From positions 2,028,831-2,092,830 of the forward strand of contig CM082578.2 in assembly GCA_040954595.2 (NCBI GenBank): a DNA stretch of 64,000 nt, written 5' to 3'. Positions within the stretch are counted from its first letter, which is position 1. Each line of letters begins with the position of its first letter. The notes beneath the pieces are model-generated. The model had not been told where the DNA came from, ran no database searches, and saw only the letters and a list, made by a program, of their open reading frames with translations. Positions 4,165 to 64,000 of the stretch are shown here, one piece after another. The stretch is from Balanoglossus misakiensis (Eukaryota > Animalia > Hemichordata). The translations under genes and the position numbers were made by a program.

Positions 4165-4165
4165 A

Positions 4166-16874: not shown

Positions 16875-17360
16875 TAGAAAAGATCTATGAGCGTTAAACT
16901 CAGTCGTGACACTTTCCCACATTTCCAATAATCGAACTTCCACGTTCGATCAAAGAAAGAATGAAAACGAAAACCAAGTCTGCGCTATCGGTTTTAAATA
17001 CACTACGCCAAAATCAAACTCAATAATCACTTTTAAAATATCACAGCCTGTTCAAAGAAATTAAAGAAAATCGCATAAAACGTTTTCAATGTCAAAATTC
17101 AAAGCGACTTCACTGTTCTGACTTCTCGTCAAAGAGTGTCTCTTTTCCAGTGAAAAATTCAACAGTCAATAACCGCGTAAAAAATCAAGTCTGATAGTTC
17201 TTTCGTACAAACAGTCTCTTCACTGCTGTACTAACGGAGCAGGCACATTCCAAAGATGCTCTCGAACACAATAACGGTTCCGGATAATACCGCCAAGTAC
17301 GGAGCATTTCAGAGTGGATCATAATGCAATACAAGCTCGTAATAAACAGTAAAAATGAAT

Positions 17361-17767
17361 TTAATCAATGTTAAAAGATCTTAATTTAATACCACTATCT
17401 GATCGCAGGAGAGAACAGCGGCTTCATCTTATGTACAAAATCGTAAATAACCAAATCGCAACTCCAGCCGAAAGTCATATTAAATTCAACCCACGTACAT
17501 CCAGTAATTCACACTCAAGACCCCTGTTCATACCAATGTGCAAAACAGATACTTACAAAGTTAACACTCCTTCATTCCGCGAACCATTATTGACTGGAAC
17601 CACTTACCTGATAACATTGTAACTAGCACAAACCTAGAGCATTTTAAAGCTGGTCTTTCAGGAATAACTAGTCATCACGACTAAATTCACCTTGCGCACC
17701 TGCAGGATTACTGCTCAATTTCTGAGTTACTCTGCAGTATTATACAGATACAGATATAGATACAGAT
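17361..17767 (+). mobile_element. 5'-truncated LINE 3' end with (TACAGA)n tail, inserted only in copy 2
   Basis: MLKDLNLIPLSDRRREQRLHLMYKIVN...SFIPRTIIDWNHLP is a CR1/L2-type ORF2 C-terminus; empty site gaat/acactt is present in copy 1 (~7845-7855). Confidence 0.88.
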
Positions 17768-18129
17768 ACACTTAATCATACTGTCAGGTTCAAAAATAAC
17801 CACGACACGAATTCTTATGTGAAAGGATGCGTAAGACTACAATAAAATCACGCTCAACTTCAACTACACTCTGGGACTTCTCTCTTGTCCCTCGTATGAA
17901 CTCACATGCCAACTCAAAGGGCCATTTTCATACGCCAGACCGTCTCCCTTGCGGTCATTAAAACATCACGACTTCATCACCAGACCGTCTCTCTTGCGGT
18001 CATCACAAAAACTTCAACAACTCCTCGAAAACCTATTAAACTTCACTACACTGCACGGCATCACTTCAACAAAAGAATACACATTTACAATGTCGAAAAC
18101 AATGCAAAAACTTGGTGGAAAACAATATC

Positions 18130-41200: not shown

Positions 41201-41900
41201 TTATAGTACAGTGTACCTACACTGTTTTAGTAATGTACTGATAATGTTCAGACTATTTCTTGTGTCTGCTAAATATTTGTTCAAAAGTGGCAAAAACACA
41301 TACATGTAAATATCACCAAAATTGTTCAAAATCTTAACTTCAATCACCACAAGGAACATGCCTGCCAAAATGCGAAACAATCAAAGCAATCTGACAAGCG
41401 GTCTCAGAGGGAAAAAATGACAAAAAAATTATTATCAAAATTATAAATATGCAATTTTTGCAACAATCTGAACAAAACCATGGTTACTCAGACAACCTAT
41501 AAGAAGCTTCATACTAAATTTCAAAGAAGTAGGCCGATCACTTTCAGAAATGAAGATTTTTTACCAATAATGTTGAAAAATACAAACAAATGCATCAAAA
41601 ATAGAAAATCAATATTAGCTCAAAACATACAGGACTGTATGAGGTAGACATAAGGTACTTGCATACCAATTTCCAAATCAATCTGACCAGCAGTTGTTGA
41701 CTTTTGCGAGTTTTGACCAATTTCACATTTTTCCAGCTAATTTGCATATTTTTGGTAATGACAACTTCATGTTAACAAACTCCAATCTACAGCCCAGCCT
41801 GCATCTGCACACCAAATATCGAGGTGATACGCACAACGGTTTTCAAGTTTTTGATGTGGACGGACATACAGACATACATCCATACAAACAGACAGACATA

Positions 41901-42097
41901 CTGTAAAACACTTTATTTTCGCGAGCAATTAATTTTCGCCAAATACGCGAGAGCCAAAATAACGTTAAAATACAAAGTCGCGTAAATGTTTTTGAAGATA
42001 ACGATGCAGTGAATTAAATAAGAGAACGCGAAAATTAATACTCGCGAAACAGTGGCCTCTCTCGATATCGCGAAAAATTTAACTCGTGAAAATACAG
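41901..42097. mobile_element. Small TA-target MITE (Tc1/mariner-pogo type) inserted in the microsatellite of a HINE-like unit
   Basis: ta/ctgta...tacag/ta ends; internal inverted ttttcgcg / cgcgaaaa motifs; flanks rejoin as (cata)n. Confidence 0.72.
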
Positions 42098-45000
42098 TAC
42101 ATCCATACATAAATACAGACGCAACTGATTCCATAAGGCCCATGGTACATACCAAATGGGACCTAAAAACTGCAGAAGCTACACAAAACATTAATACTGA
42201 AAACATGGCAAACAGTTGTTGCTAACAGGGTTTTAAATCTCCCTCATAGATATTTTTGAACTCCCAATTTATGATTATTGACTGTTTGATTGATTAGTTG
42301 TTGCACAAATGATAGTATTATCAAAGTAAATAATATCTGTGAGAAATTTCTTTTCATATTTATTTGAATATGGATAGGGTAAGATGGGGGTTAAACAAAA
42401 CTACATTTGTTCAAAAGTAGCAAAAACACAAATATGCTAAAATCACTATAATTGTACACCATCTTACTTCAATCACTACAAGGAACATTCCTGCCAAAGT
42501 TCAAAGCAATCTGACAAGCGCTTCCAGACACAGCGAATTTGATAAACATCTACAAATATATTTTTATTTTTTAAACAAATCTTTTACAACACCTTACTTG
42601 GGTTACCCCCCTAGGAATCTGCATTCTGAGCAAAAATTACAAAATTGCTCAAAATTATAAATATACCAATTTCACAACAATTTGCAATTTGAACAAAAGC
42701 TATCGCTTTCAGAAATGAAGATTTTTTTTACCAATAATGCAGTAAAAGACAAAACAATAAAAATAGAAAATTCATAATATTAGCTCAAAACAAAACATAC
42801 AGGACTGTATGGCGTTTATTGACATGTATAAGAATATGGACAGGGTATGATAGGGGGGGGGAGTTATAAATTCCAAGGGGGTCATCAATTTTTTGTCATA
42901 ACTTTTTGGGGCCATAGAAAAAATAACCTAAAAAGTAGGAAACCCTACGTCCCCCCAAGCTTTCATTCTGGCCAACAACTTTTTATGAAGGCTTCTGCAA
43001 TTGTTAAAAACAGATTGCCTGCTATGTTAGACTATCAATCTATAGAGGGGATGAAAAATCTCCTTTTGTCAAGTGTCTGGATTTTGATAACTTCAACGGG
43101 TAAAAATATATTTGTAGATGTTTATCAAATTTACTATGTCTGAAACAGTATGCTTGCAAATGTATTAATATAGTCAGATAACATGAATAGTGAAGATAGC
43201 AAAACAAACAGGTTTATGCTTATAGCCATAACTTCTATTAGTGATGTACATGTTGTACGTAGCAAATAATTGTTATGATCAACTTGGTTTTTATTGCACA
43301 AGATCTTTTTATTGCATCCATGTTTCGTTTCATTCTGGATAATAGTCTGTCTAAATAAGTTAACAGGCTTGATGAGGGTTATTTTAAACAGTGTTCTCAA
43401 AAAACCTGCAATGTCATGCCCTATATTTATGAAGTTGAGGAGAGGTTGTATTCCTAGCAGGATGTTGAAATCATTGGAGGACAAACCTTGCCAGTACCAA
43501 AAGTTGCTGGGTGTTATAAATGTTTGAGTAACCCCCCCCCCCCTTCCCCAATAACACAATATATAATATCACATTTTTACAACATCTTACTCAGTTTACC
43601 CTTAGGAATATGCCTACCAAATCAATCTGACATGCAGGTTTAAAGAAAAAAAATGACCAAAAATGGCAAAAATTGCTCAAAATTTAAATATGCAAATGTT
43701 TCAACAATTTGAACAAAACTTTGGTTACTCAGACAACCATTAGAAGCTTCATACTAAAATTCAAAGAATGAGGCCTATAACTTTTAGAAATGATGATTTC
43801 TTTACCAATAATGTGGAAAAATACAAAAAATGCATAAAAGATTTTTGGCATAAAAAATTAAAAATCGATAATATTAGCTCAAAACATACAGGACTGTTTG
43901 AGGTAGACATAAGGTACATGCATACTGATTTTCAAATCAATGTGACCAGTGGTTGTTGAGTTTGAGTTTTGACCAATTTCACATTTTCCTAGCTAATTTG
44001 CATATTTTTGGCAATGACAGCTTCATTTGAACAAACTCCAATCTTCAGCCTGGCCTGCATCTACACACCAAATATCGAGGTCATATGCTTAGCGGTTTTC
44101 AAGTTTGTGATGTAGACGGACATACAGACATACATACATACATCCACCGATATCATAAGGTCCCATGGTAAAGCAAATGGGTCCTTACAAAACTATGGTA
44201 ACTCAGATCACCTATGAAGCTTCATACTAAATTTCAAATAAGTCAGCTGATCAATTCCAGAAAAGCAGATTTTCTACCGATAATGTGGAAAGAGACAAAA
44301 AATACAAATGGAAAATTCACATTATTAGCTCACAACATATAGAACTGTGTGAGGTTAACATAACTTACAGGAATACCAATTTTCAATTTTGAAAGCAATT
44401 TGCTCAGTAGTTGTTGAGTTCCCGAGTTTTGACGAATTTGACACTTTCCCAGCTAATTTGCATATTTTGGCAATGAAAACTTCATTTTGACAACTCCCAC
44501 CTACTGCCCTGCCTGCATCTCCACACTAAATATCAAGGTCACATGCCAGTGGTTTCCAAGTGTTTGATATTGATAGACATACAGACAAACATCCGTACAG
44601 ACATCCATATATACAGGTGCAACTGATCCCATAAGGTCCCATGGTATAAATACATATACCTGCACCAAATGGGACCTAATAATTCCGATAAAATGCCTAC
44701 ATAGTAAGTGTAAAAACCACTTGTACCGTCAACGTCCTTGGACAACAATGGCTAATATTACTTGCCAAGGGCGACTAGAATTTTGGGGGCCTGATGCAAT
44801 TCTGATACATGTACTTCATGATTTAGAGATATGGTGAAAATCCTGTCAACCGAATTACTGGGAAATCAGATTTTCCATGTAAAATCATATCACCCCAAAA
44901 TGTCAAGTGTCGAAAATAATTTTGAAACAAAAAGTCTACTCAAAATCATACCAAAATTTAAATTTTAAAGCAGTACGTTAGGCAAGCAATTTGAGAATGA

Positions 45001-45376
45001 AGAAACTTACAAAAAATTTATAAATTGAAAATAATTTACAAATGCCGCACACAAACTTACAATCACTACCATATTACTGTACAAGTTAAAAGGACATTGT
45101 ACCAGCAGAGACATTGCGATCGAGCAATCCCCAAGATATACATGACATGGTCTAATTACAAATATTGAATATGTAAAATAAGTACACAACACTTCCAGTC
45201 TTTCAGTACAGTCAGCTGCTTGTTAACAATAGGCATGTAGCTATTTCATCAAATTTACAGCCCAAGTCATGCCTATACAATTCTCCCTTAAGCTACCCTA
45301 AGTGAGTGATGAAAATCTCATATGGTCGACAATTGATGGCCGATTTTTGCCATGTTAAAGAAATGGGAGTTCATAA

Positions 45377-46153
45377 GGCTGCATTCACAAACACCTCTGG
45401 AGGGGGGGGGGGGGCAGGAGAATTGCGGGGGGGATTTGAAAAAATTGAGGGTATGTAAGGGGGGATTTGAAATAATTTAGGGACTGAAAGGGGGGACTTG
45501 AAAACTTTGACGACTAAATATTTATTTTGAGTCCACAAAAATGCAGTTTCGCGCCCTTTATTTAACACCCCCTCCCACACCCACCCCCTCCATTCATCAA
45601 CACCTTTCAATCATTGACTGGTTCAAACATTGTCTAGTGTCCCAGGTCAGGGGACTTGCCCCCACCCCATGATAACTTTGAGCGGCGACGGTTAAATTTG
45701 TCCTCCCCAACATACCGGTATTTGAGTTAATTTGCTTTTGCCGGGTTCATTAAAATGCAACTTTGAGCTCTGTAATTTATAAAATTTTCTTACGTGGGAG
45801 GGGGACACCCCTTCCCACACCCACCCCCTTCAATTCTCGGTTTACAATGTCTCCCAACACAGAATACAAATACTTAAAAAGTAAAAACAATGTTCAGTTT
45901 TAATACCCACTGATGAGGGGAAACATCAGTTTCAAAGTCTTTTCATGGGAGCGATATTTTTCTTTTTTACAAGATAGATAGGTGATGTGTTTTGCTCTGT
46001 GAAAGAAAATGGGGGGGGGGTTTCAAAATTTTGGCAGTTCAGAAGGGGGGATTTGAAAATATTTCGGGTTGTGTACGGGGGGCATGTGAAAATTAGCGGT
46101 AAAAAAAATGGAATTCTCCCCCCCCCCCTCCAGAGGTGTTTGTGAATGGAGCC
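45377..46153. mobile_element. PIF/Harbinger-type MITE
   Basis: TIR ggctgcattcacaaacacctctggagggggg / ccctccagaggtgtttgtgaatggagcc; TAA TSD (45374-45376, 46154-46156). Confidence 0.9.
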
Positions 46154-46590
46154 TAAGCTAAAGTGATAATGGGTCATTCTTGAACTTTTTAACAGACAAA
46201 ATAACAAAATGTGAAAAAAGTTTAATGAATTTAATATGCTAACTACAGAGACAGACATGTTTGACCAAAGCATGAAATACAAAAAAATGTATCATTTCTT
46301 CTATCTCTTACTACAGTTGGTTGTGGACTTTTCGCCCAGAATGCAATGTGATTTGACCCCCTAGCGCAAAGTGAAAACCTATTTAAGGCAGCCAGAATTT
46401 TCTGCATAATATGACGGAAACATTTGTAAAGTCATGGCTAGCGTGGGCTGGTAAGTATATGCGACTCTCCATGATAACCAGTTGTGACTTGCCACCACCA
46501 TAATTTTGAAAGGGCGACTTCACAATTTGATGGGAAAAGGTAGCCTTTACAAACAAGCTATGGAGCATGTATACAGCAAGTTGTGCTTAC

Positions 46591-46663
46591 CGGAAAGCGG
46601 TCTTGGATCAGGCCTAGGTATTCTCTTCCTCCTCCGGCATACGTTGAAATGCTGTGTTTAAGA
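46591..46663 (-). other. Candidate 73-nt exon of an unidentified minus-strand transcript (paralog 52195-52267)
   Basis: Minus strand ttgattcacag/TCTTAAAC...TTTCCG/gtaagc; canonical splice sites; identical in both duplication copies. Confidence 0.5.
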
Positions 46664-47845
46664 CTGTGAATCAAATATATGCATATTAATTAGTAACCAA
46701 TCAACCTTGCTTTAGAATTATCTGGGCCATACTAATTGGTGAAAATATGCAAAACATGGTATAATGTAGGGTCAGACTGTGCTGCGATAATGTACAACAG
46801 TGGAATACGAATCAGAGAAATCTGTAACAGCGATCTTGAAACTCCATTTACATCAGTACTGCAGTAAAGTGGTCCACATGGGTATACCACAAACATGGCA
46901 GTTAGGTGACAAGTGAAACTGACATCATATCTGTAAACGACAGGTGTACACACACTTTGACATCTACGTAACACTGTACAGGGATTTCTTTATGTTTGTT
47001 GTGAAAATGAAACTTACATTTGATCCACCTCACTTTTCATACAACTGATTAGCATAAGAATGTACATTGTTGGCAATTATAAAACATTTATTTTAGTATA
47101 GAAAAGTAAGCCTTAAAATTTAAACTTTGAATATCAGTATACTAAAATGTTTCAAACGTAGCTGTCAGTATATCTCATGGCATGGTGGCAGAAGTAGATG
47201 TTGCTACCAGGGAAGCCGATTGAACATAGACAAGCCCAATAGTCGCTTGGTGATTTTTTATCTTTATAAAGATTCTCAAAACTTTTTGTGCATTTGGTAG
47301 CTTTGGGCAAGTTTCTGGTCCTGATCAGAGTTTTCGAATTCAGAACTGCGCTTCTCTGGCTTTGGTAACCATGGGCCAATCTGCACACATTTTTGAAAAA
47401 GAATCCAGCCTGTTTGTGTCATGATTTATATTATTCTTTCTGGCCTAAAGTATTGTTTTATGTCACTCTAAACAACATTACTTTCCTTCATGTGTCTAAT
47501 ATAATAACAGATCTCTTAGCCAGTTTGATTAAGCATAGTGTTGGACTAGCACAATTTCAGCCAAAATTACGGTCTCTCCTCGTGTATTGGTATGGGAGTA
47601 ATTTCTAGCTATATGGTTAAGGAAATGCATCCAAATTTAATTTATGCATGCTTCACATGAAGATTTGAACTTGACCATTTAATTCATGTCATCACGATCA
47701 TATCACAGGCAATCGAGGCCAGAATTCGAAGGGGAAAAAAGTATTGATAACTGGAATGTGTAAATTAGTTCGTAGACATACATTGCTTCCTATTGTCTCG
47801 GTTGCAACGCCCGATAAAAGCAAATATATAGCAAGTCATGCTTAC

Positions 47846-47919
47846 CATTGAGCGGTCTTAAACTCGCCCCGGACGAGAAAGAGAATCCAGAGTTGAAATG
47901 AGACAATCTCAGGCAGCAT
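47846..47919 (-). other. Candidate 74-nt exon of the same minus-strand transcript (paralog 52831-52905, 75 nt)
   Basis: Minus strand ttgattcatag/ATGCTGCC...CAATG/gtaagc; shares motifs with the 73-nt unit. Confidence 0.45.
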
Positions 47920-50167
47920 CTATGAATCAAATAGACATAGAAGTTAGTAACCAGTCATAGTAGCTCTAAGTTGGGTGTACCAACTCTCCTTGTTAACAGT
48001 AACTTTCAAAGAAACTGAACAATTGGTTAAGAAGAGTTTCTATCCAAAACAGAGATAGAAAAATGTATTTTTGACCAAACATTGTCTGTACAAACACATA
48101 TGACAAGCAACTTATTTCAGTCAGCCCTGCTCACTGACCCACCACTGTTAATTCAAAATAGAATAACTGGTAGTCTCTGTAACAGCTGGCATATTAAAGT
48201 TATGTAAACATGTCTAAGTTGGGTGTACCAACTCTCCTTGTTAACAGCAACTTTCAAAGAAACTGAACGATTGGTTAAGAAGATTTGCAATCCAAAAACA
48301 AAGAAATTTACAACAAACTATTTTGACAACCAGAATTTAATCAAAGTTGCACGTACATATACATGTGTTATGAAATTGTTAACTAACTTCCAAAGCAATC
48401 ATAACAAAATTGGTTACCCCTAGGAATATTCCTACCATATTTCAAAGCCATCAAAAAAGTTCAAAGCAATCTGACAACGGCTTGAACGGTTTAAGAGAAA
48501 ACAGTTTTTGGCAGAGATTGCCAAAAATATGCTCAATGACACAAGCACGCAGTTTTAACAATTTTTACGACATCTTACTTGGGTTACCCCTGGGAATCTG
48601 CCTACCAAATTGCAAAGCATTCTGACCAAAATTGGCAAAAATGCTCAAAATTATAAATATGCCTATTTTACAACAAATTGAACAAAAACTATGGAAACTC
48701 GGACCACCTATATGAAGCTTCATACTAAATTTTGAAGGAGTCGGACTATCGCTTTCAGAAGTGAAGATTTTTTTTACCAATAATGTGGAAAAAGACAAAC
48801 AAATTAATAAACATTAGAAAATTCATAATATTAGCTCAAAACATACAGGACTGTGTGGGGTTCATTGACATACCGGTTTTCAGATCAATCTGACCAGTGG
48901 TTGTTGAGTTTCTGACTTTTGACCAATTTCACATTTTCACAGGTAATACTTTTGGCAATGACAACTTCATTTGAACAAAATCCCACCTACAGCCCCGACT
49001 GCATCTACACACTAAATATGGAAGTGATACGTGCAGCAGTTTTCATCCGTTCATTCATACATACATATGCATGTCATTCCTTAAGGTCCCAATCGTATAT
49101 ATATATATACACACAAACCAAATGCCATAGGACCTAAAAATTGCTCCAAAATTAAAATACACAAATTTTGCAACACTTTAATCAAAACTATGGTAACTCA
49201 GATCACCTGTGAAGCTTCATACTAAATTTCAAACAAGTCAGCTGATCACTTCCAGAAAAGTATTTTTTTTACCGATAATGTGCAGACAAAAAATGCATAA
49301 AAATTGGAAATTCACATAAGCTGACAACATATAGGGCTGTGTGGGGTTACCATAAGTTACATGCATATCAATTTTGAATTTGAAAGCAATTTACCCAGTA
49401 GTTTTTGAGTTCCTGAGTTTTGACAAATTTGACACTTTCCCAGCTCATTTGCATATTTTGGCAATGACAACTTCATTTAGACAAACTCCCACCTACTGCC
49501 CTGTGTAAAAACCACTTGTACCTTCAACGTGCTTGGACAACACATTTTTGTAACTTTCCGACATCAATGGCTAATATTACATGGCAAGGGTGACTAGAAT
49601 TTTGTTTGGGGGTGCCGATGCAATTCTGATACATGTACTTCATGATTTAGAGGTATGGTGAAAATCCTGTCAACCGAATTACATCATTTTACCAAAAAAT
49701 TTCAAAAGTGTAGAAAATAATTTTGAAACAGAAAGCCTACTCAAAATCATACCAAAATTTAAAGTTTAATGCAGTTGGGCAAGCAATTTGAGAATGAAGA
49801 AACTTACAAATAATTTATAAATTGTAAATAATTTACAAATGCCGCACACACTTACAATTACTACCATATTACATGATAAAAGGACATTGTACCAGCAGAG
49901 ACATTGCGATCGAGCAATCCCCAAGATATACATCACATGGTCTAATTACAAATATTGAATATGTAAAATAAGTACACATAACTTCCAGTCCTTCAGTACA
50001 GTCAGCTGCTTGTGAACAATAGGCATGTAGCAATTAAATCAAATTTATAGCCCAAGTCATGCCTATACAATTCTCCCTACTTTAAATACGTTTTAAGCTA
50101 CCCTAAATGAGTGATGAAAAACTCATACGGTCGACAATTTCAAGATGGCCGATTTTTGCCATGTTAA

Positions 50168-51673: not shown

Positions 51674-53114
51674 ATCATTTCTTCAATCTCTTACTACAGT
51701 TGGTTGTGGACTTTCCGCCCAGAATGCAATGAGATTTGACCCCCTACCACAAAGTGGAAACCTATTTAAGGCAGCCAGAATTTTCTGCATAGTATGACGG
51801 AAACATTTGTAAAGTCATGGCTAGCATGGGTTGGCAGGTTTATGGGACCTGCTCAGGTTCCCTCGAATAACACATAATGCATGATTGGTGACTGATTATT
51901 CTTTATTTGTTGATTTTGTCACATTTTCAGATAAATCCCTATCAATCAGTCATTGTTTGGCCTTGCTATACAGCGCAATATGAATCTTGTTGACTGAAAT
52001 TGTTGAGGATAGTGGTACATAAAGGTTACCAAGTGGAAAATATTCAAATGATTATTAGTGGTGTCCAACTCACCATGATAACCAGTTGTGGCTTGCCACC
52101 ACCATAATTTTAAAAGGGTGACTTCACTATTTGATGGGAAAAGGTAGCATTTACAAACAAGCTATGGAGCATGTATACAGCAAGTTGTGCTTACCGGAAA
52201 GCGGTCTTGGATCAGGCCTAGGTATTCTCTTCCTCCTCCGGCATACGTTGAAATGCTGTGTTTAAGACTGTGAATCGAATATATGCATATTAATTAATAA
52301 CCAATCAACCTTGCTTTAGAATTATGTGGGCCATACTAATTAGTGAAAATATGCAAAACATGGTGTAATGTAGGGTCAGAAAAAATATCCAGCCTGTTTG
52401 TGTCATGATTTACATTTTTCTTTCTGGCCTAAAGTATTGTTTTATTTCACTCTAAACAACATTACTTTCCTTAATGTGTCTAATATAATAACAGATCTCT
52501 TAGCCAGTTTGATTAAGCATAGTGTTGGACTAGCACACCTTCAGCCAAAATTACGGTCTCTCCTCGTGTATTGGTATGGGAGTAATTTCTAGCTATATGG
52601 TTAAGGAAATGCATCCAAATTTAATTTATGCATGCTTCACATGAAGATTTGAACTTGACCATTTAATTCATGTCATCACGATCATATCACAGGCAATCGA
52701 GGCCAGAATTCGAAGGGAAAAAAAAGTATTGATAACTGGAATGTGTAAATTAGTTCGTAGACATACATTGCTTCCTATTGTTTCGGTTGCAACGCCCGAT
52801 AAAAGCAAATATACAGCAAGTCATGCTTACCATTGAGCGGTCTTAAACTCGCCCCGGACGAGGAAGAGAATCCCGAGTTGAAATGCAGACAATTTCAGGC
52901 AGCATCTGTGAATCAAAAAGACATAGAAGTTAATAACCAGTCATAGAAGCTCTGCGTGGCAGGGCTGCGTGTTAATGGCTATGTCATAGCTCACACTGGT
53001 AGCTTATAACAGTCTCAATGGTGCCAAAAATCTCCCCAACAACAAAACTAATTCTGGTCAGTTTATTCGCTATCGCTTTGCCTTAAAAGTTAGGGCCTAT
53101 ACTGTAGTGTGTTA

Positions 53115-53563
53115 CCACAGGGGGCTCTCCCTCCGCGATTTTATTGTTTGTTTGTTTGTTTGTTGTTGTTGATTGGCATAATAAACAAATACATATTTCT
53201 TTATTAATAAATATGGTTTGTTGACATGTAAGTGTTAGGGTATATTCGACAGGTTAAGGTATATTCAACGGTTAGGATTAGTGTTGGCATTTTTTTCGAT
53301 TCTTGGCCCCGGGCATCACTAAGCCACAAAGAGAGGGTGATACCGACCGTGGATAGAAAAAATGCCAACATTAATCCTAACCGTTGAATATACCATAACC
53401 TGTCGAATATACCCTAATAACCTAACCCTTACATGTCAACAAACCATATTTATTAATAAAGAAATATTTATTTGTTTATTATGCCAATCAACAACAACAA
53501 CAACAACAGACAAACAAACAAACAAACAAACAATAAAATCGTGGAGGGAGAGCCCCTTGTGGT
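53115..53563. mobile_element. Fold-back MITE with ~185-bp arms containing (TTTG/TTG)n
   Basis: accacagggggctctccctcc...gttggcattttt mirrored by aaaaatgccaac...ggagggagagccccttgtggt. Confidence 0.85.
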
Positions 53564-55500
53564 GCAACGGTACCACCTGCCCCACAACAACAAAGCTGAC
53601 TCGAGGCCACAAACCACGTACAATTTACTCGCACGGTGTCAAACAACGCATAAATTCCATGCGACAGTGAGTTTACTGTTCGACGCTGTAACGCTTCCCA
53701 AAGTCAGAATTTCGATGTTGGGAGGACACTCTCGCCCTACCACGACCAGTTTTTGCTAGAAGGAGTGTACATGTACTTGTAAAACAACATTAAATGCCAT
53801 GCTTACCAGAGAAACGACATCATCAAGCATGGAGGCGACCGGGACCTCCATGCTTGATGAACGTCAAAGCTGCAATGATTTTTCAAATGCAACGGTCAGC
53901 GGTACGAAAACGAGGCACCACCTGTGCGTCAATTATGCAAATTAGTTACTACTCAATCAGAATCCTGCTTCAATATGACATCACACTAATTAGTCAAAGT
54001 ATGCAGTGCAACGTATGTGTGCAGGTGGAGAATGCGCCTCACGTCAATGCAGACACACAAGACACACAAACTGAAATGCAAATTGATGAATTCTGTCACG
54101 GCGTTCTTTTGAAGTGCGAATGAATAAAATATTTCGTTTTCTTCAGTGTTTTTGTACTACAAAAAAATTGCGAAAAAACAAATAGCAAGCGCTTATGCTA
54201 TGAAATACAAATAAATATCAGTTATGGCCATGTGGAAATGGAACGTCAATCCGCATTTGTCAAATATAATAGAAAAGACAAAGGAGCTGAGACGTCCTAA
54301 AATAAAAGGAATGACCTCTCCGTTCTGACCTGTATGAGGAAGCCCTATTGTAATACGCAATATGTCGGATCATGCTACCATCCGCCATTCTGATTGGACG
54401 AGAGCTCAATCCATCGAAAGGAAAGTACTCAATAGAGCACTGCTAAAACTGGCCCCTGAACTAATAGCATGCAACAGGGAAAACGTGACTAAATAAATAA
54501 AAAAATATAGCTGATAAATTTACGGACGGCCGGTTTATTTTTTAACTGCTCTATAGGAACTGTTGTCACTGTCATGCACGATGCATGTCTTGTCACTGCG
54601 CACTCGTGTTAACATTCATCAGAGCGCCTTTCGATAAATTCGTAACGTTTACATTAGACTCGAGTTCATTTTCGTTATGAAAATGACATTGATATACCAC
54701 AAAATCGATTACTGATATAAAATAATAGCAATAACCCTAACCATAGATTAGGCTATAGCATTCCGGTAATTTTTTCAATATCACTCAGGAAGGATTCTAT
54801 AACATTCTGTTTTGTATCGGCATGTATAATTTAATATCCATACTACAAAACAAATATCAGCGGTAACTCAGAATATATTGTTGAAAATTTGCTCACTGTA
54901 GGCCTGACCATGGTAAGATTATGCAATACTGGTAAGTATTTTGGGAGACTAGGTTGCATTGTATTGTCTGGTGTTCAAAAAATCACAAACATCCCGGACG
55001 ACTAAATTCTTTCTTTCAAAACCACTTCTGCAACGACAAGAACTTTCACGAGTACGAGCATTCGGGGCAGGCAAAAACCATGGTATGAAGACGATATGAA
55101 GTCGATGAGTTAATGTTATGTTGAACCCGCTTTTAAATACTAGGTTCGGTATGTTTTTGCGCTTGTCTTTTTCTTTTTGTTTATAAATAGTCGTATATTT
55201 TAAAATAGCTCAAATGAGTCAATGGGACATTTTTCCATCCCACCTCATCCTAACTAAGGTTTTCAGTGGCCGGTCACCTGCACACATTAAATTTACCACG
55301 GACAAATTGAAATACAGCCAATCGAAAAAAGTGCGCCACCACATGGTCATTTGAAGACTTTGACGCGCTCTCCTGGCCGTAAACGCATGTGATCCGGAAT
55401 AAATCGAACCTCGGTCGTGTTTTATTTATTTTCACCACCAGCGAAAATCTACGACGGCCCAACCGCAGATTGATGCTGCTCCGTACAACAACCGGCTTAA

Positions 55501-56298
55501 GGGAGCATTCGTTTTTTACAGGGAGGGGGGGGCCGGTGGAATTTGAGTCGCCGACTAAATGTAAAAGGCAACCCCCCCTGGAAATTACTTTTCTAAAATG
55601 TGACCCCCCCCCCCCCAAAAAAAAAAAAGTTTATCCACCGGATTAACTTATCAAACTTTGTCAGATATTGGTGTATGTTCGACATACCACATATGTGCGC
55701 TTCAACTATTTTCAGTTTGTCTTTTTTCAGCATCTTTTTCTCTGTTGTCAATTTATGTCTGTTCATTTACATGTCTACTGAACATTGTTTTTATATTTTA
55801 AGTATTTGTATTCTGTGTTGGGAGACATTGTAAACCGAGAATTGAAGGGGGTGGGTTTGGGAGGGGGTGTCCCCCTCCCACATAAGAAAATTTTATAAAA
55901 TACAGAGCTCAAAGCTGCATTTTAATGAACCCAGCAAAAGCAAATTAACGTCGCCGCTCAAAGTTATCATGGGGGGGGGGGGGGGCAAGTCCCCTGACCT
56001 GGGACACTAGATAAACCAGTCAATGATTGAAAGGTGTTGATGAATGGAGGGGGTGGGTGTGGGAGGGGGTGTCCCCCTCCCACATTAGAAAATTTTGTAA
56101 AATAAAGGACGCGAAACTGCATTTTTGTGGACTCAAAATAAATATTTAGCCGTCAAAGTTTTCAAGTCCCCCCTTTCAGTCCCTATATAATAATCCCTTG
56201 ATTATAAAATTTGTCCCCCCCTAAAAACTGCTTTGTAAAAGTAAACCCCCCCCTGATTTCCACCGGCCCCCCCCTCCCTGTAAAAAACGAATGCTCCC
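55501..56298. mobile_element. Second PIF/Harbinger-type MITE family
   Basis: TIR gggagcattcgttttttacagggaggggggggccggtggaa / ttccaccggccccccc...tccctgtaaaaaacgaatgctccc; TAA TSD. Confidence 0.9.
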
Positions 56299-56401
56299 TA
56301 AACTGTTCTGTGCATGTGTTTTGTGTTCTGGTGGTGTTTGCGGGTCTGAGACGTCAGTGTATAAGTCCCTTATCGTTTTGTACCAATAACTTTTACCCAC
56401 C

Positions 56402-56559
56402 TAGACTCTCTCGCAGCCCCTCTTGCCGTCCATGCAGGCTTATGGACTGATTGCATGCAGGTTCGCTACACAACACCATATGGGGCTTCTCCTTTTCTAA
56501 ACAGTTGAGGGCGCATCAGTGAAGAGCCGTGTAGCGAACGTGGGCTGTGAGAGAGTCTA
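56402..56559. mobile_element. 158-bp MITE with 9-bp TSD and TAG termini (AcademH-like; Mutator-like not excluded)
   Basis: TIR tagactctctcgcagccc / gggctgtgagagagtcta; TSD ttacccacc at 56393-56401 and 56560-56568. Confidence 0.8.
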
Positions 56560-56777
56560 TTACCCACCATGCTAGAACTTTTTCGTTTTCTTTGACGACG
56601 CTTAACACTTTTAATTTCTTGCTTTGTTGTTGGTAGCTTGTTTGTTCGTTACGTCTGTAACTGGGGTTCTTCACTTGTGGAATATACTGCTTATTTCTTG
56701 TGTATCTGCATTATGTTGATGTTGTCGCTCCTCTGGCAGAGAAGCCAGGGTTCTAGCTGTTGGCTTTAATATTAAAT

Positions 56778-57038
56778 GGACTGTTCAGAATTTACTTCCG
56801 GGGGCGGAGGATTTTGAGGGGGGACCACCAATTTTCTCCAAGAAAAATTAGGGGGGAACAGACATAAAAACCACAATCCTTTAAGGGGGACCATGGAAAA
56901 AAAAACGAGGAAATTTAAGGGGGGACCACAGATTTCCTCCACAATTCACTAGGGGGGGGGGGGGGACCGTGAAAAAAAATCACCAGGAAAATAAAAAATC
57001 CTCCGGCCCCACCCTGGAAGTAAATTCTGAACAGTTCC
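56778..57038. mobile_element. Third Harbinger-like MITE with G-run interior
   Basis: TIR ggactgttcagaatttacttcc / ggaagtaaattctgaacagttcc followed by taa; internal ggggggacca repeats. Confidence 0.75.
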
Positions 57039-57804
57039 TAATGTTTGTTTGCTTGTTTGTTTATTTGTGTGTTTGTTTGTTTGTGTATTCTATGACGCTT
57101 CTGTCACATTTGGCGTTTACTGTTGCATGAACAATGACCAAACCGACTCGACTGTATTTGGACGCACAATGGGTTTAAGAGTTAATCCATCGGTGTTTAC
57201 CAGCCTAAACCATTCGATTTCTATAACTCTGTTGCAACAAGTGAGAACCATAGTCTATGTGAGAACCTAGTAATATATACATGTAAATCAGAAGGCCAGT
57301 AACTGCATGTTTACCAGACTGGCGTGCAGTGACACCTACCACAAAATGGTATCGCCCAAATAATGTTGGGTAGAAGTTATGAGCCCGGTAAAAATAGCGC
57401 GAGCTATACATGGAAAAAAGTTGTTTTCCAAAAATAGAACAAAATGGGAATTCAATTCAGTGAATATGATTGGCACTTACGGAGTTTTAAATCAAAATAG
57501 TGGATTCATACCAATGAATACAAGTCAAGAAGTCACGTAGGGATCATGAAACAGACCTATTGATCATGTCATGATTATGTACAAGTAGCCATACAAAATT
57601 TTGAGTGAACTAGATAGTCCATGGGCCAGGACCCGATTTTTCATGAATTGGTATCAGAAAGATGGACAAAGCCTCATGTGGTTTTTTGGAAAGGCCTATA
57701 TCTCTAGATTATAAATTGGGGTGATAGCCCTGCCTATCGAGTAGCTTTCTGCATTTTTTCCCTCAAAAACTAATGTAAGAACATAAAAATTTCCGACCCA
57801 AATT

Positions 57805-58900
57805 TTGGGGGTAGGGGAACTTTAAATTGCTGTATCTCCAGCAAAACTAAAGCCAGAACAGTCATTTACCACTCAAATTGTGTGTTTTTTAGAACTCTAC
57901 CAATATAATATATTTTGGTGGTAATTCGTTTTGAATTGAGGTCAATAGAGGTCAAAAGGTCATGAAATTTGGGTCATTCTGAAAATTTGTAGTATGACTA
58001 TTTCTTGAACGATAGTTTTGAACTTAAGTCTTTAAATGTCATTTAGAAGATAAAATACTCTCCCAGAATGTATTTCAAACCAATAGAAAATCTTATTATT
58101 CATTTATGACCAGAAAAACACAAATAAGGAGAAACGACAGAAAGACATCCAATTTTCCACTCAGATTTAAGGGTAGGGGAAACTTAAGTTCTTGTTACTC
58201 CGGCAAAAATAAACCCAGAACAGTCATCTACCACTCAAATTGTGTGTTTTTAGAACTCTACCAATATAATATATTTTGGTGGTAATTCGTTTTGAATTAA
58301 GGCCAATAGAGGTCAAAAGGTCATGAAATTTGGGTCATTCTGAACATTTGTAGTATGACTATTTCTTGAACGATTTTTTTGAACTTAAGTCTTTAAATGT
58401 CATTTAGAAGATAAAATACTCTCCCAGAATCTATTTCAAACCAATAAAAAACCCTATTATTCAATTACGATCAGAAAAACACAAATACAGAGATACGGAA
58501 GAATGGCACAAGACTTCAGACCCTGATATTGGGGTAGGGGAAAACTTAAGTAGTTGTAACTCCGGCAAAAATAAAGCCAGAACAGTCATCTACCTATCAA
58601 ATTGTGTGTTTTTTTAGCACTCTAGCGATTGTATATGTATTTGTTGCAATTTTGTTCTGAATTTAGGTCAAAGAGGTCAAAAGATCACAAGATTTGGGTA
58701 ATTTCGAAAAATTATGGTACGAACATTTCCCGCATTAATTGTTTAAACCCAAGTCTTCAAATGTCATTTATGAGATAAAATACTCTATACCATTTTTTTC
58801 CGGACCAATTGAAGACCTTATTATTCAATTAAAATCAGAAAAAAAATTAGTAGAGAAACGGGATAATAACAAACAATTCCCACAGATTTTGGGGTAGGTT
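57805..58900 (+). repeat. Subterminal tandem repeat of the Academ-like element, ~361-bp unit x3 (mirrored at ~61065-62160)
   Basis: gggtagg anchor at ~57808, 58171, 58532, 58892, each full unit followed by ccagaacagtcat...ggtcaaaag...aaatgtcattta. Confidence 0.9.
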
Positions 58901-59216
58901 TGGCCATCTAACAGCTAAGTATACACCCAACTGATCATGCACATATGGTGTTTAGGAGAACGGATGTGCAGATTTGTGAACCTTTGCATGCTGCTCATGT
59001 GCACTGTACTTGTATGATGATTCCTAATAATACTACGAGAAGGGGCCATTATAGCATTGTAGCTCTGATTGTGTATTATTGTTGGATACCATCCTACAGT
59101 GTACAGGCACAGCAGATGACAAGCCAAGCAAAGGTTCAAAAATCTGCTTATTTTTTTTCCTCAACACAATATGAGCATGATCTATTTATATTCAGGTCCA
59201 CTATAATAAATAAAAA

Positions 59217-59797
59217 ATGGAAGCCCATCTTCTATTCCACACAAGAGGGCTCGACGGGATTGTTTTCTCGACTGTCATGAATCCGACCATAAAGCAAGCC
59301 TCGTTACTCTACAAGATCACGCCTCCTGGATAACTTTGCTGAATACAGCTAACATACAAAAATACAAACCAATTCAGGACCTCGCCATTGGTTTGGGCGA
59401 AGGTGAAATTCCTCAGGTGCAGTACCATCGGAAATGCCGAAGTCTCTTTACGATGAAAAAGGCTCTTGAATCTATCCTTTCTAAAGAGCAGTCGTCATCA
59501 ACTGAGGGAACCAATACACTGGAACGTGAAAAGAGGTCGAGCATACAAGGGTCTCGGGTGTACGATCATATTTGCCTATTTTGCTCCACCACCAAGTACA
59601 TGAAGGGAAGTAGGACAAGAGCTCATTTAGTTCGTTGTCAGCAATTGCGTGCGGACAACACATTAAGGGAGGCAGCAACAAGAAAAAACGACAGTAAAAT
59701 TCGTGCACTTCTCAGTCGTGAGTTGGTTGCTGCTGAGGGTCACTATCTTAGAAAGTGTTATAGGGACTATACAAGGCCTGATATTCAAGCAGCGTAA
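59217..59797 (+). pseudogene. Truncated Academ-type transposase N-terminus, left arm
   Basis: YHRKCRSLFT...CLFC...ELVAAEGHYLRKCYRDYTRP; 1-nt shorter just after the ATG than the right arm (frameshift); stop at the central junction. Confidence 0.75.
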
Positions 59798-60748
59798 GCA
59801 GGATTAGAGCAGATGTGGTGATGATACTTTCATGTGATTGTTTTTCTGCTGCAAGAAGTTCTTTTCTTACAGCATTGTACTTCAGGTCAACAGTACCTAT
59901 ATCTAGTGATGACGGATATACAAGCACCCTACCATTTACATCATCCAAAAATATCAATGTCCCTTTGAATTCCGTATTTAGCGTATGCTGCAAGTTTTGT
60001 TGGTGGAATTGTTAACCTGTTTAACACCAAGTTGGAGCATTTTGGTAACTAACTTGTTTGATAGATCAGTCAGGGGAACTACCTCAGGGTTTGTGAACAA
60101 ATCATTTCTGATAAAAGAAAATAACTCTTCTTGAGCAATTTGCAGGACATCCTCATAACTAGTATCTTGATCATGTTGACTTTCATCAACCTCCATATGA
60201 CTTGAACCTGCTCTATGATAGTGACCCTCAGCAGCAACCAACTCACGACTGAGAAGTGCACGAATTTTACTGTCATTTTTTCTTGTTGCTGCCTCCCTTA
60301 ATGTGTTGTCCGCACGCAATTGCTGACAACGAACTAAATGAGCTCTTGTCCTACTTCCCTTCATGTACTTGGTGGTGGAGCAAAATAGGCAAATATGATC
60401 GTACACCCGAGACCCTTGTATGCTCGACCTCTTTTCACGTTCCAGTGTATTGGTTCCCTCAGTTGATGACGACTGCTCTTTAGAAAGGATAGATTCAAGA
60501 GCCTTTTTCATCGTAAAGAGACTTCGGCATTTCCGATGGCACTGCACCTGAGGAATTTCACCTTCGCCCAAACCAATGGCGAGGTCCTGAATTGGTTTGT
60601 ATTTTTGTATGTTAGCTGTATTCAGCAAAGTTATCCAGAAGGCGTGATCTTGTAGAGTGACGAGGCTTGCTTTATGGTCGGATTCATGACAGTCGAGAAA
60701 ACAATCCCGTCGAGCCCTCTTGTGTGGAATAGAAGATGGGTTTGCCAT
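59794..60748 (-). pseudogene. Truncated Academ-type transposase N-terminus, right arm (ORFs 59978..60748 and 59748..59993 joined by a frameshift)
   Basis: MANPSSIPHKRARRDCFLDC...CLFC...ELVAAEGHYHR...LFSFIRNDLF...RVLVYPSSL...TSALIL; no catalytic core present. Confidence 0.78.
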
Positions 60749-62714
60749 TTTTTATTTATTATAGTGGACCTGAATATAAATAGATCATGCTCATATTGTG
60801 TTGAGGAAAAAAAAATAAGCAGATTTTTGAACCTTTGCTTGGCTTGTCATCTGCTGTGCCTGTACACTGTAGGATGGTATCCAACAATAATACACAATCA
60901 GAGCTACAATGCTATAATGGCCCCTTCTCGTAGTATTGTTAGGAATCATCATACAAGTACAGTGCACATGAGCAGCATGCAAAGGTTCACAAATCTGCAC
61001 CTCCGTTCTCCTAAACACCATATGTGCATGATCAGTTGGGTGTATACTTAGCTGTTAGATGGCCAAACCTACCCCAAAATCCGTGGGAATTGTTTGTTAT
61101 TATCCCGTTTCTCTACTAATTTTTTTCTGATTTTAATTGAATAATAAGGTCTTCAATTGGTCTGAAAAAAATCGTGTAGAGTATTTTATCTCATAAATGA
61201 CATTTGAAGACTTGGGTTTAAAAAATTAATGCGGGAAATGTTCGTACCATAATTTTTCGAAATTACCCAAATCTTGTGATCTTTTGACCTCTTTGACCTA
61301 AATTCAAAATAAAATTGCAACAAATACACATTACAATCGGTAGAGTGCTAAAAACACACAATTTGAGAGGTAGATGACTGTTCTGGCTTTATTTTTGCCG
61401 GAGTTACAACTACTTAAGTTTCCCCTACCCCAATATCAGGGTCTGAAGTCTTGTGCCATTCTTCCGTATCTCTGTATTTGTGTTTTTCTGATCGTAATTG
61501 AATAATAGGGTTTTTTATTGGTTTGAAATAGATTCTGGGAGAGTATTTTATCTTCTAAATGACATTTAAAGACTTAAGTTCAAAAAAATCGTTCAAGAAA
61601 TAGTCATACTACAAATGTTCAGAATGACCCAAATTTCATGACCTTTTGACCTCTACTGACCTCAATTCAAAACGAATTACCACCAAAATATATTATATTG
61701 GCAGAGTTCTAAAAAACACACAATTTGAGTGGTAGATGACTGTTCTGGGTTTATTTTTGCCGGAGTTACAAGAACTTAAGTTTCCCCTACCCTTAAATCT
61801 GAGTGGAAAATTGGATGTCTTTCTGTCGTTTCTCCTTATTTGTGTTTTTCTGGTCATAAATGAATAATAAGGTTTTCTATTGGTTTGAAATAGATTCTGG
61901 GAGAGTATTTTATCTTGTAAATGACATTTAAAGACTTAAGTTCAAAAAAATCGTTCAAGAAATAGTCATACTACAAATTTTCAGAATGACCCAAATTTCA
62001 TGACCTTTTGACCTCTACTGACCTCAATTCAAAACGAATTACCACCAAAATATATTATATTGGTAGAGTTCTAAAAAACACACAATTTGAGTGGTAAATG
62101 ACTGTTCTGGCTTTAGTTTTGCTGGAGTTACAGCAATTTAAAGTTCCCCTACCCCCAAAATTTGGGTCGGAAATTTTTATGTTCTTATATTAGTTTTTGA
62201 GGGAAAAAATGCAGAAAGCTACTCGATAGGCAGGGCTATCACCCCAATTCATAATCTAGAGATATAGGCCTTTCCAAAAAACCACATGAGGCTTTGTCCA
62301 TCTTTCTGATACCAAATTCCTGTCTGGCCCATGGACTAAGAGAGAAGTATACTAGTTATCGCTTGAATTTCATGTTTCGTTTTATTCAGATGTAGTCAAC
62401 ATTCATTTCAACAAGTCTATAACATGATTTTGAAATGATTTTCAAAAGTACACAATTCCATATGAAAATGTTACTTTTAGATTTGTAAATTTTTCTGTGT
62501 GTTTGAGTTCAAGTGCATAGGCTGACTCAAACATTCTTTGCATCAACATTTACCGTCCTTTCAAAAATCCTGCCTGTAGTCCAGGTTTTACATTTGCACT
62601 TAATAGCATTATAACACCATCATGTCATCCACATGTTACCCTCATAGCCAGTCACAGTGTGTATATTGTGATTCATGAAGTACATGCTGTTCTACAGATT
62701 TTTTTGTGGAGATG

Positions 62715-62846: not shown

Positions 62847-63826
62847 CAGTGAAACCTGTCTATTAAGGAAACCTCTAGCTCTGGGACTGGAAAATGTGTC
62901 CTTAATAGGGAGGTATCCTTAATAGACAGGTTGTATTCTATTCAAACTGTGACTTTTGTCATGAAAAAAATGTCCTTAAGATGGGTCCCTAGGATCTTTT
63001 TGCTCGTTGCTATGGGCCTTTATAGGACACTACACTCAATTTTGATCGAAACCGTTATGAACGTCTGACAAGGGGCTTGTAACTAGTTAAAAATATACAC
63101 GATTGTGTGCACACCCCCTGTCTGAGATGTTTACGGCAGCTACCGCCCGGCCATAGGCCGCCACGCTAATACGGCAAAGCAGCGGTCAGCGATAGCGTGC
63201 GCGTCCTGTAACCACAGTAACTGGATCGAACGCTAAAAATCCAATGTTTTGTACACAGAGATTTTGTACCGTTCACGAAAATCCCTAAGGCTTTTTTCAC
63301 AGGCGACGTAGGCCAGTCAAATTTGACCTGCTTGTTGAGAACGCACTTCCGCATAGTGTGACGGATCGTTTTTTCGGTTTTCGTCGTGCTAAGAAGCGAT
63401 ACCAGTGGAAGAGTGCGTCCAAAAACACCCAAAATCGATGACTTTTTCAGGTGTGGTACGGGTATGCTGAAATCGTAGGATACAACGATAATATTCGAAA
63501 ACAAAATCCGTCACGATCTTCCCTGGTTCAAGCAACTAATGAATACGTATCAAGTTCGTTTTTGAGGTCACGGAATAAAAAGCCTTAGGCTTTTGAAATT
63601 CGACCTAACTAATTTGCATATCAATGGCGTCAGGGGGCGCGCGCTCACAATCGTGCGTATTTTTAACTAGTTACCAGCCCCTTGTTAGACTCTAAAAACG
63701 GCTTAGTCCAAATCGGGGTGTAATGTCCTATAAAGGCCCATAGCAACGGGCAAAAAGATCCTAGTGACCCATCTTAATAGAGAGGTGTCCTGATTAGAGA
63801 GGTGTCTGTAATGACAGGTTTCACTG
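62847..63826. mobile_element. Tc1/mariner (pogo/Tigger-type) MITE, interrupted by a nested element
   Basis: ta/cagtgaaacctgtc ... gacaggtttcactg/ta; internal gtccttaatag repeats. Confidence 0.88.
62980..63773. mobile_element. Non-autonomous TTAA-target element with purine-purine terminus (Kolobok-like), nested in the pogo-type MITE
   Basis: ttaa/gatgggtccctaggatctttttgctcgttgctatgggcctttataggacac ... tgtcctataaaggcccatagcaacgggcaaaaagatcctagtgacccatc/ttaa; inner inverted motif acaaggggct..taactagttaaaaatatac. Confidence 0.85.
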
Positions 63827-64000
63827 TATGCTCTGACTGATCGCAAAAGCTGAAACTTTTATGTGTTTGTAGATACAACACAAAGGAACTAAAAATAAGG
63901 CATTCACATAGGGACCATTGAAAGGTTTCTGAAACATCTCAACTCAAATATTGACATAAAATATGTGAACAGTTTAAGTCTTCCTGGAACGTTTCAGCTT

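What the first reader, a model, noticed from the sequence alone, without database searches (positions are those of the whole stretch)
57615..62338. Mu-killer-like palindromic Academ element: candidate natural hairpin-RNA transposon silencer
Seen: a 4724-bp unit with ~2.13-kb inverted arms (57615-59752 / 60212-62338) and a 459-bp spacer. Each arm carries a terminus, subterminal repeats and the first ~180 codons of a transposase pointing inward, and the whole is flanked by one AGA TSD. Known: TAG termini with 3-4-bp TSDs and an xLVAAEAxYHxxCY-type motif fit Academ transposons; maize Mu killer is an inverted duplication of the MuDR 5' end whose hairpin RNA silences the family in trans. Inference: read-through from either arm's promoter would fold into at least 0.5 kb of transposase dsRNA, and with two intact ends the unit may itself be mobilisable. 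I know of no described Academ killer element but cannot search the literature.
Basis: partly seen in the sequence, partly recalled or inferred. Interest (0 to 1): 0.8.

Follow-up and report, generated by a model that had tools for sequence, protein, structure and literature searches.

The report
Mirror-image non-autonomous Academ transposon
This is a real 4.7-kb defective jumping gene built from two head-to-head front halves of an Academ-type transposon, likely one of tens of similar copies; its family's RNA appears to be double-stranded and edited, but nothing shows that it silences its parent, and such mirror copies are already known from other transposon families.

Summary
The palindrome is real: arms 57615-59752 / 60212-62338 are 97.5% alike, and two runs of the same sample hold the empty site with a single AGA, which confirms the target-site duplication. 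The 'spacer' is also transposase: the left arm runs to codon ~193, the right arm to ~329. A 5-bp remnant matches the parent's expected next codons, suggesting fold-back followed by one-sided deletion. Full-length relatives (~1550 aa) fold as DDE transposase plus XPG/EXO1 nuclease, so the parent is AcademX-like; this copy lacks both catalytic domains. Contig depths and at least four other flanks suggest tens of copies, many probably two-armed (inferred). A third run, probably RNA, holds two low-depth A>G hyper-edited contigs antisense to the transposase. This points to double-stranded RNA in the family, but the informative contig comes from a sister copy. Silencing is untested, and in C. elegans such editing prevents siRNA production. 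Two-5'-end derivatives are described for mariner, Galileo and Mu killer, and this scan found Tc1 equivalents in other genomes. Verdict: new member of a known kind; 'killer' role possible but unsupported.

The parts
57612..57614 (.). Left copy of the 3-bp target-site duplication AGA
   Evidence: empty site with one AGA in X1 and X2 (table 7); X1 record 5 leaves the window at 57614
57615..59752 (+). Left arm: transposon 5' end, subterminal repeats and start of the transposase gene
57615..57629 (+). 15-bp terminal sequence beginning TAG, identical at both ends; the next ~19 bp differ between the ends
57809..58843 (+). 361-bp subterminal tandem repeat x2.9 (mirror copy 61122-62173)
58933..59182 (.). 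250-bp imperfect (~69%) local palindrome upstream of the ATG (mirror copy 60783-61033); possibly a nested MITE; can fold on its own
   Evidence: no shuffle control run
59217..59792 (+). Left transposase remnant, codons 1 to ~193, frameshifted just after the ATG
59793..59797 (+). 5-bp junction remnant CGTAA, read as the next codons (Arg, start of Lys) expected after codon 329 of the parent
   Evidence: Arg in 14 of 14 rows of A1 and 70 of 73 non-gap rows of A2, L-R-K in the two closest relatives
59798..60211 (-). Single-copy continuation of the right arm's transposase, codons ~192-329, with a frameshift near 60000
   Evidence: tblastn with P0001, 69-73% identity
59978..60748 (-). Open 256-aa truncated transposase frame of the right arm, with a 12-codon in-frame deletion at ~60213 and a Tyr-to-Cys change at 60540
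60212..62338 (-). Right arm: second transposon 5' end, pointing inward
62339..62341 (.). Right copy of the TSD AGA

Best explanation
This is a non-autonomous palindromic derivative of an AcademX-like DNA transposon: two 5' ends face each other across a truncated transposase gene, it sits at a site with a confirmed 3-bp duplication, and it is likely moved in trans by an intact parent as one of tens of similar copies. Formation (inferred): a copy folded back near codon 330 and re-synthesised the 5' half, giving a near-perfect palindrome; a one-sided deletion of ~410 bp from the left arm and a 36-bp deletion in the right arm then opened a 459-bp centre. Expression (inferred): transcription that runs through such copies gives antisense and fold-back RNA of at least 0.54 kb of transposase sequence, which ADAR-type enzymes hyper-edit. 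That RNA is most likely a by-product; editing would tend to divert it from siRNA production, so any silencing of the parent is probably weak or incidental. Shown: anatomy, TSD, loss of catalytic domains, other insertion flanks in the family, edited antisense contigs. Inferred: copy number, the share of two-armed copies, mobility as a palindrome, that X3 is RNA, the formation path.
For: Anatomy. Empty site: table 7, record 5. Parent type: 14 relatives of 464-1575 aa, best 73% identical; the AlphaFold model of relative P0021 (pLDDT 86) matches EXO1 (Z 14.0, rmsd 3.8, 263 aligned), XPG (Z 11.5, rmsd 3.6, 229 aligned) and P-element transposase (Z 10.8, rmsd 4.2, 272 aligned) (Foldseek one search agrees on the nuclease). 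Multi-copy: three other flanks at the terminus among the 14 loose ends shown, 14 not shown, and a fourth in an X2 joint. Depths: ORF arm 8837-10668 vs centre 2604-4644 in X2, and 2420-2931 vs 924-1296 in X1, about 2-3:1. The left-arm-type contig in X2 (4474) is half the ORF depth. Alleles specific to this copy's left arm (59748 T, depth 578) and right arm (60540 C, depth 595) exceed the locus-flank contig (336) in X1. Deletions cluster at the junction: a sister variant's deletion ends within 2 bp of the 36-bp one (table 5), as for Rpmar17. Editing: (T>C at 23 places when laid on the left arm and flank).
Against: The read tool warns that contig depth is not a copy number. Some arm contigs are shallower (X1 1465-1809; X2 5000-7000), which lowers the ratio to 1.1-2.7. 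A mix of ordinary and 5'-only deleted copies could give a similar ratio. The flank is itself multi-copy (about 11 times the lowest contig depths), and a GATC-type chimeric joint to another flank has depth 173, so part of the copy number may come from amplification of surrounding DNA and not transposition. No listed contig bridges the junction. A pure fold-back would give identical termini, yet positions 16-34 differ between the ends. X3 is on record only as 'DNA?', and the two edited contigs have depth 4.5 and 3.9, perhaps a few molecules.
Confidence: 0.68

Rival explanations
1. Functional killer: the palindrome (this copy or its sisters) makes hairpin RNA that is diced into siRNA or feeds piRNA and represses the autonomous AcademX parent in trans, as Mu killer and Ac killer do in maize.
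For: Anatomy equals Muk (two 5' TIRs plus inverted partial transposase; PMC3440606 passages). A read-through of 59212-60752 is predicted to pair 536 of 541 arm bases. No AATAAA lies on the + strand between 59206 and 61307. Antisense family RNA appears hyper-edited, hence duplexed. An X3 contig crosses a terminus into another flank (record 22).
Against: No small-RNA or parent-expression data. The ORF-region edited contig carries another copy's alleles (60436 T and small deletions). Editing of palindromic repeats is common across animals (PMC5625713) and blocks siRNA production in C. elegans (PMC7084138). An inferred spread to tens of copies argues the parent stayed active while palindromes were present. 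Even for Muk the long-hairpin model is disputed.
Confidence: 0.17
2. One-off in-situ rearrangement: an ordinary long-TIR Academ copy inserted here (making the TSD) and its 3' interior was later overwritten by an inverted copy of 5' sequence, as in Galileo extended-TIR copies; the palindrome never moved as such, and high depth reflects ordinary copies and amplified flanks.
For: A TSD fits this as well. The two termini differ at positions 16-34, as a natural left and right end might. The flank is multi-copy. TIR extension by recruiting internal sequence is described for Galileo (PMC3573991 passages).
Against: Arm-specific alleles of this copy are deeper (578, 595) than the locus flank (336) in X1, and ORF:centre depth is about 2-3:1 in both DNA runs.
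Confidence: 0.2
3. Protein repressor: the right arm's 256-aa N-terminal fragment binds transposon ends or poisons the transposase, like truncated P-element repressors (KP; recalled, no call).
For: Open 256-aa frame from the native ATG.
Against: The 12-aa deletion and the Tyr-to-Cys change hit the two conserved HxxC motifs; the mRNA would fold back on itself; the left arm is frameshifted.
Confidence: 0.05
4. Assembly or library fold-back artefact.
For: No listed contig bridges the junction or spans the unit.
Against: Arms differ by 34 substitutions and 10 indels, with alleles of both arms present in X1 and X2. The centre is asymmetric and biologically interpretable. Contigs of a run with Hi-C-type GATC joints (X2) break exactly at both junction edges. 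The TSD is confirmed by an empty site.
Confidence: 0.03

Closest known systems
Rearranged mariner lineages with one half replaced by the other: Dromar7/11/28/36 MITEs (PMC4161770, passages) and Rpmar17/Rpmar49 of Rhodnius (PMC4678618, passages)
   Same: Non-autonomous, two like ends, very long inverted arms containing transposase sequence, amplified in trans; in Rpmar17 later deletions cluster round the breakpoint, as here.
   Different: Different superfamily; 0.5-1 kb versus 4.7 kb here; no RNA evidence in the passages read.
Maize Mu killer (PMC3440606, passages) and Ac killer composite insertions (bioRxiv 10.1101/2020.01.07.897926, abstract and outline only)
   Same: Two 5' ends plus inverted partial transposase gene; fold-back RNA predicted.
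   Different: Those are single loci defined genetically by heritable trans-silencing and siRNA in a plant. Here neither is shown, the host is likely an invertebrate animal (inferred from relatives and editing), and the RNA appears A-to-I edited.
Galileo extended/recombinant-TIR copies (PMC3573991, passages)
   Same: Long, internally repetitive TIRs lengthened by inverted recruitment of internal sequence; non-autonomous.
   Different: P superfamily; recruited sequence was mostly the non-coding region next to the TIR, whereas here ~180 codons are duplicated.
AcademX DNA transposons (3-4-bp TSD and nuclease: PMC10045372 passage; ~1500-aa transposase-XPG-Cys8 protein and TAG termini: recalled from Kapitonov & Jurka 2010 and Kojima 2020, neither held)
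   Same: 3-bp TSD, TAG termini, relatives of ~1550 aa with DDE, XPG-like and Cys-rich tail domains.
   Different: This copy keeps only codons 1-329 and has no 3' half; no direct comparison with a named Repbase/Dfam Academ was possible.
Palindromic Harbinger repeats of Xenopus and palindromic non-autonomous transposons of C. elegans as ADAR substrates (PMC5625713; PMC7084138; passages)
   Same: Self-folding transposon RNA that is hyper-edited.
   Different: Those are short non-coding elements; here the duplex includes transposase coding sequence.

Membership tests
AcademX (parent family) | 3- or 4-bp target-site duplication | tested here: met
   AGA both sides, empty site with one AGA; criterion from PMC10045372
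AcademX (parent family) | Encodes a nuclease (XPG-like) besides the transposase | tested here: met
   On relatives, not on this copy: model of P0021 matches EXO1 Z 14.0 (rmsd 3.8, 263 aligned) and XPG Z 11.5 (rmsd 3.6, 229 aligned). The window piece matches the N-terminus of 92 of 130 fetched proteins. 'XPG' as the family's nuclease is recalled.
AcademX (parent family) | DDE-type transposase domain | tested here: met
   On relatives: P-element transposase Z 10.8 (rmsd 4.2, 272 aligned), then integrases, Tn5 and Hermes at Z 6.8-8.1. Absent from this copy, which stops at codon ~329.
AcademX (parent family) | TAG...CTA termini and C-terminal Cys-rich finger (both recalled) | tested here: met
   Termini seen directly; Cys-tail pattern in 70 of 74 full-length relatives. 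The criterion itself comes from no call.
AcademX (parent family) | Sequence similarity to a named Repbase/Dfam Academ entry | not testable with these tools
   No such library; Pfam gave no significant family; defining papers not held
Two-like-end non-autonomous derivatives (Dromar11/Rpmar17 type) | One half replaced by an inverted copy of the other, giving very long TIRs with transposase homology | tested here: met
Two-like-end non-autonomous derivatives (Dromar11/Rpmar17 type) | Same rearrangement at two or more independent insertion sites | tested here: inconclusive
   At least four other flanks and ~2-3:1 arm:centre depth, but flanks cannot be phased with the junction and no genome is held
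Mu killer / Ac killer type silencer | Inverted duplication of the transposon 5' end including transposase sequence | tested here: met
Mu killer / Ac killer type silencer | Transcribed into antisense or fold-back RNA from this locus | tested here: inconclusive
   Hyper-edited antisense contigs exist for the family, but X3 is only inferred to be RNA and the ORF contig has another copy's alleles
Mu killer / Ac killer type silencer | Produces transposon-homologous small RNAs | not testable with these tools
   No small-RNA run offered
Mu killer / Ac killer type silencer | Represses the autonomous element in trans, heritably | not testable with these tools
   Needs crosses or carrier comparison

The most novel reading that the evidence does not exclude
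A self-spreading killer: a palindromic AcademX derivative that is mobilised by its parent, has come to make up most of the family's 5' ends in this animal genome, and whose hairpin RNA (partly escaping ADAR editing) supplies small RNAs that shut the parent down, a mobile negative-feedback silencer in an animal.
Probability: 0.15. Interest if true: 0.72.

Novelty: new member of a known kind. Interest (0 to 1): 0.38.

Why it matters
How a host first recognises a new DNA transposon is still open; inverted duplications that make double-stranded RNA are the demonstrated trigger in maize. This element extends the two-5'-end architecture to the little-studied Academ superfamily and comes with a sign of in vivo duplex RNA, so it is a usable test case of whether such hairpins silence their parent in animals or are neutralised by ADAR editing. 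It also suggests that AcademX transposase can use two left ends. Without small-RNA or carrier data it remains an instance of a recurring repair product.

Tried and rejected
No whole genome is held, so the junction could not be searched genome-wide. The look-up of sequencing runs: no RNA holder listed; three runs, one sample, one study, the best of which may be the assembly's source. X3 has no cover over 59650-60363, including the centre; a hole in contigs proves nothing. No contig bridging the junction was among the 24 of 578 pieces shown or the 24 of 7000 shown. Pfam gave no significant family for the window pieces or four full-length relatives; sequence searches of the PDB gave nothing. The metagenome scan gave two weak 37-51-residue hits that showed no Academ element. 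RAG1/Transib were not among the 50 structural rows shown; this excludes nothing. Kojima 2020 and Yuan & Wessler 2011 are not held; PMC4455052, PMC10294476, PMC7805219 and PMC10799480 (passages) gave no structural definition of Academ. Searches listed no paper on a palindromic or silencing Academ element; Repbase Reports and most subscription journals are outside the library, and no supplements were read. Look-ups of earlier findings near the locus and by sequence were blank. Rejected: spacer as foreign filler; X3 as bisulfite or simple low-coverage DNA (the change is A>G on one strand only, and the deep ORF region appears only as edited contigs; inference); 5 of the 7 joints as real rearrangements (X2 only, all at GATC sites, read as proximity-ligation chimeras).
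Full report
Observation. The inverted structure is present as described. Self-BLAST gives 57615-59752 against 62338-60212 at 97.5% over 2142 columns, with 34 substitutions and 10 gap runs. Each arm reads inward: a TAG terminus whose first 15 bp are identical at both ends and whose next ~19 bp differ, a 361-bp repeat x2.9, a 250-bp imperfect local palindrome, then the transposase start. AGA flanks both ends.

The centre. tblastn with the closest relative, P0001 (73% identical), shows that the 459-bp centre is transposase. The left arm continues to codon ~193 (59792). After 5 bp (59793-59797) the rest is the right arm's own continuation, codons ~192-329 on the minus strand, with a frameshift near 60000. 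The right arm lacks 12 codons just after 'YHR'; the left arm is frameshifted right after its ATG. The 5 bp read CGTAA, which is what the parent should carry next: that residue is Arg in 14 of 14 rows of alignment A1 and 70 of 73 non-gap rows of A2, and the two closest relatives read L-R-K. The simplest reading (inferred) is a fold-back near codon 330 with a 4-nt loop, then a ~410-bp deletion on the left side. Against a pure fold-back, the two termini differ at positions 16-34, so synthesis may have returned to an original 3' end, as in TIR extension.

Family. The fragment matches the N-terminus of ~1550-aa animal proteins (named sources include lancelets, corals, a fish, a crab and a sea spider). 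Pfam and PDB sequence searches gave nothing significant. An AlphaFold model of relative P0021 built on 89 sequences (pLDDT 86.2) matches EXO1 (Z 14.0, rmsd 3.8, 263 aligned), XPG (Z 11.5, rmsd 3.6, 229) and FEN1-family nucleases over residues ~647-1012, and P-element transposase (Z 10.8, rmsd 4.2, 272), integrases, Tn5 and Hermes over residues 1-454. A Cys-rich tail is present in 70 of 74 full-length relatives. Nuclease plus 3-4-bp TSD is AcademX according to a passage of PMC10045372; the XPG, Cys8 and TAG details are recalled, since the defining papers are not held. This copy holds neither catalytic domain and cannot move by itself.

Is it real, and did it insert as a unit? Three runs of one sample hold the stretch; X1 may be the assembly's source. 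X2 shows five joints that all fall on GATC sites, so it is likely a proximity-ligation library and independent of long-read chimeras. In X1 and X2, contigs join the 30 bases before the left AGA directly to the right flank (table 7): the empty site has one AGA, so the TSD is real. The flank is itself repeated, so the empty site may be a paralogue, not the other allele. No listed contig bridges the central junction, but X1 record 1 and X2 record 10 end exactly at 59798, and X2 record 9 exactly at 59792, where a loose end shows the undeleted parent continuation. A branch at both edges is what the junction predicts.

How many copies? The tool warns that depth is not copy number, so this is inference. 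The lowest contig depths shown are 110, 114 and 114 in X2 and 51-94 in X1. Against that, the centre is 2604-4644 in X2 and 924-1296 in X1, the ORF part of the arms 8837-10668 and 2420-2931, and the left-arm-type contig in X2 4474, i.e. roughly 20-40 units of centre and twice as many arms. Alleles specific to this copy's left and right arm have depth 578 and 595 in X1, above the 336 of the locus flank. At least four other flanks abut the terminus (three of the 14 loose ends shown, one joint). A sister variant has a larger deletion ending within 2 bp of the 36-bp one (table 5). Against: some arm contigs are shallower (X1 1465-1809), 5'-only deleted copies could mimic the ratio, and one other flank appears multi-copy, so flank amplification contributes.

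RNA. X3 is recorded only as 'DNA?', but it assembles to 28 million letters against 339 and 314 million, and 24 of its 41 difference places on the right arm and flank are A>G, against 0 of 24 in X1 and 0 of 21 in X2. Nine such rows are shown, each with zero support in X1 and X2; 19 rows were not shown. They come from two contigs (60413-60550, 15 other letters, depth 4.5; 60719-60869, 22 other letters, depth 3.9). By my comparison the 30-letter loose end of the first holds 8 more A>G. G precedes 2 of 16 edited As in 60380-60550 against 12 of 27 not seen edited (p = 0.045, approximate because rows were hidden), in line with the ADAR preference (PMC5625713). A>G on this strand means RNA antisense to the transposase was in a duplex. 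Limits: depths under 5 may be a few molecules; the second contig overlaps the local 250-bp hairpin; the first carries 60436 T and two small deletions that the DNA runs show at about half depth or more but that neither arm of this copy has, so it comes from a sister copy or other haplotype. Another X3 contig crosses a terminus into a different flank (record 22).

How it most likely works. It is a parasite of its parent: two left ends let an intact AcademX transposase move it (inferred). Transcription through such copies folds back (536 of 541 arm bases paired in the prediction) and is edited. Whether this silences the parent is untested. In C. elegans, editing of palindromic non-autonomous transposon RNA prevents siRNA production (PMC7084138, passages), palindromic repeats are routine ADAR substrates, and an inferred spread to tens of copies implies the parent was active alongside them. 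I put a real killer function at about 0.17.

Comparison. Mu killer has the same anatomy but is defined by heritable trans-silencing (PMC3440606, passages), as are the Ac killers (bioRxiv 10.1101/2020.01.07.897926, abstract; PMC13635294, search listing only). Mobile lineages in which one half replaces the other are described for mariner: seven Drosophila sublineages with the 3' part replaced by 5' sequence (PMC4161770), and Rpmar17/49, where later deletions cluster round the breakpoint (PMC4678618). Galileo extends its TIRs similarly (PMC3573991). Searches listed no palindromic or silencing Academ element, within a library that lacks Repbase Reports. Earlier notes of this scan describe Tc1 equivalents with ~145-150 copies in other genomes, one with edited RNA (unchecked).

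Verdict. Observation confirmed and refined; interpretation partly supported. New member of a known kind, apparently unreported for Academ, with suggestive in vivo dsRNA evidence at family level and no evidence of silencing. Interest 0.38.

Noticed in passing
window 60213-60377 and 60667-60747 (sister copies in X1/X2): Two further deletion variants of the family: one ends within 2 bp of this copy's 36-bp deletion (depth 423 / 550), the other removes ~26 codons right after the ATG (depth 801 / 584).
   Followed up: partly
window ~57588-57614 / 62339-62351: An X1 contig of the flank repeat lacks about 30 bp around the insertion site (loose end before 62351); could be an imprecise-excision scar or an older deletion.
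   Followed up: no
window 18131-34844: 86-bp satellite, about 197 copies, 96% matches, ~50% GC.
   Followed up: no
window 2080-8179 and 11844-18100: Direct duplication of about 6 kb at 95-98% identity, with ORFs at 8318-10853 between the copies that read like the endonuclease and reverse transcriptase of a non-LTR retrotransposon (identity judged by eye, not tested).
   Followed up: no
window 55497-56302: MITE-like element with 45-bp inverted ends; an X2 joint 55499-56308 shows its empty site.
   Followed up: partly
window ~62847-63829: Short TA-flanked inverted-repeat element containing a nested TTAA-flanked element 62976-63777 with 143-bp inverted ends at 84%.
   Followed up: no
window 53114-53563: 450-bp palindromic repeat, 80% self-complementary.
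   Followed up: no
window 38288-49503: Seven or more dispersed direct copies of a 300-500-bp repeat at 72-91% identity.
   Followed up: no
window 53900-57614: Every 200-bp bin left of the element is deep in both DNA runs (1734 or more in X1), so the neighbourhood is made almost wholly of repeats.
   Followed up: partly
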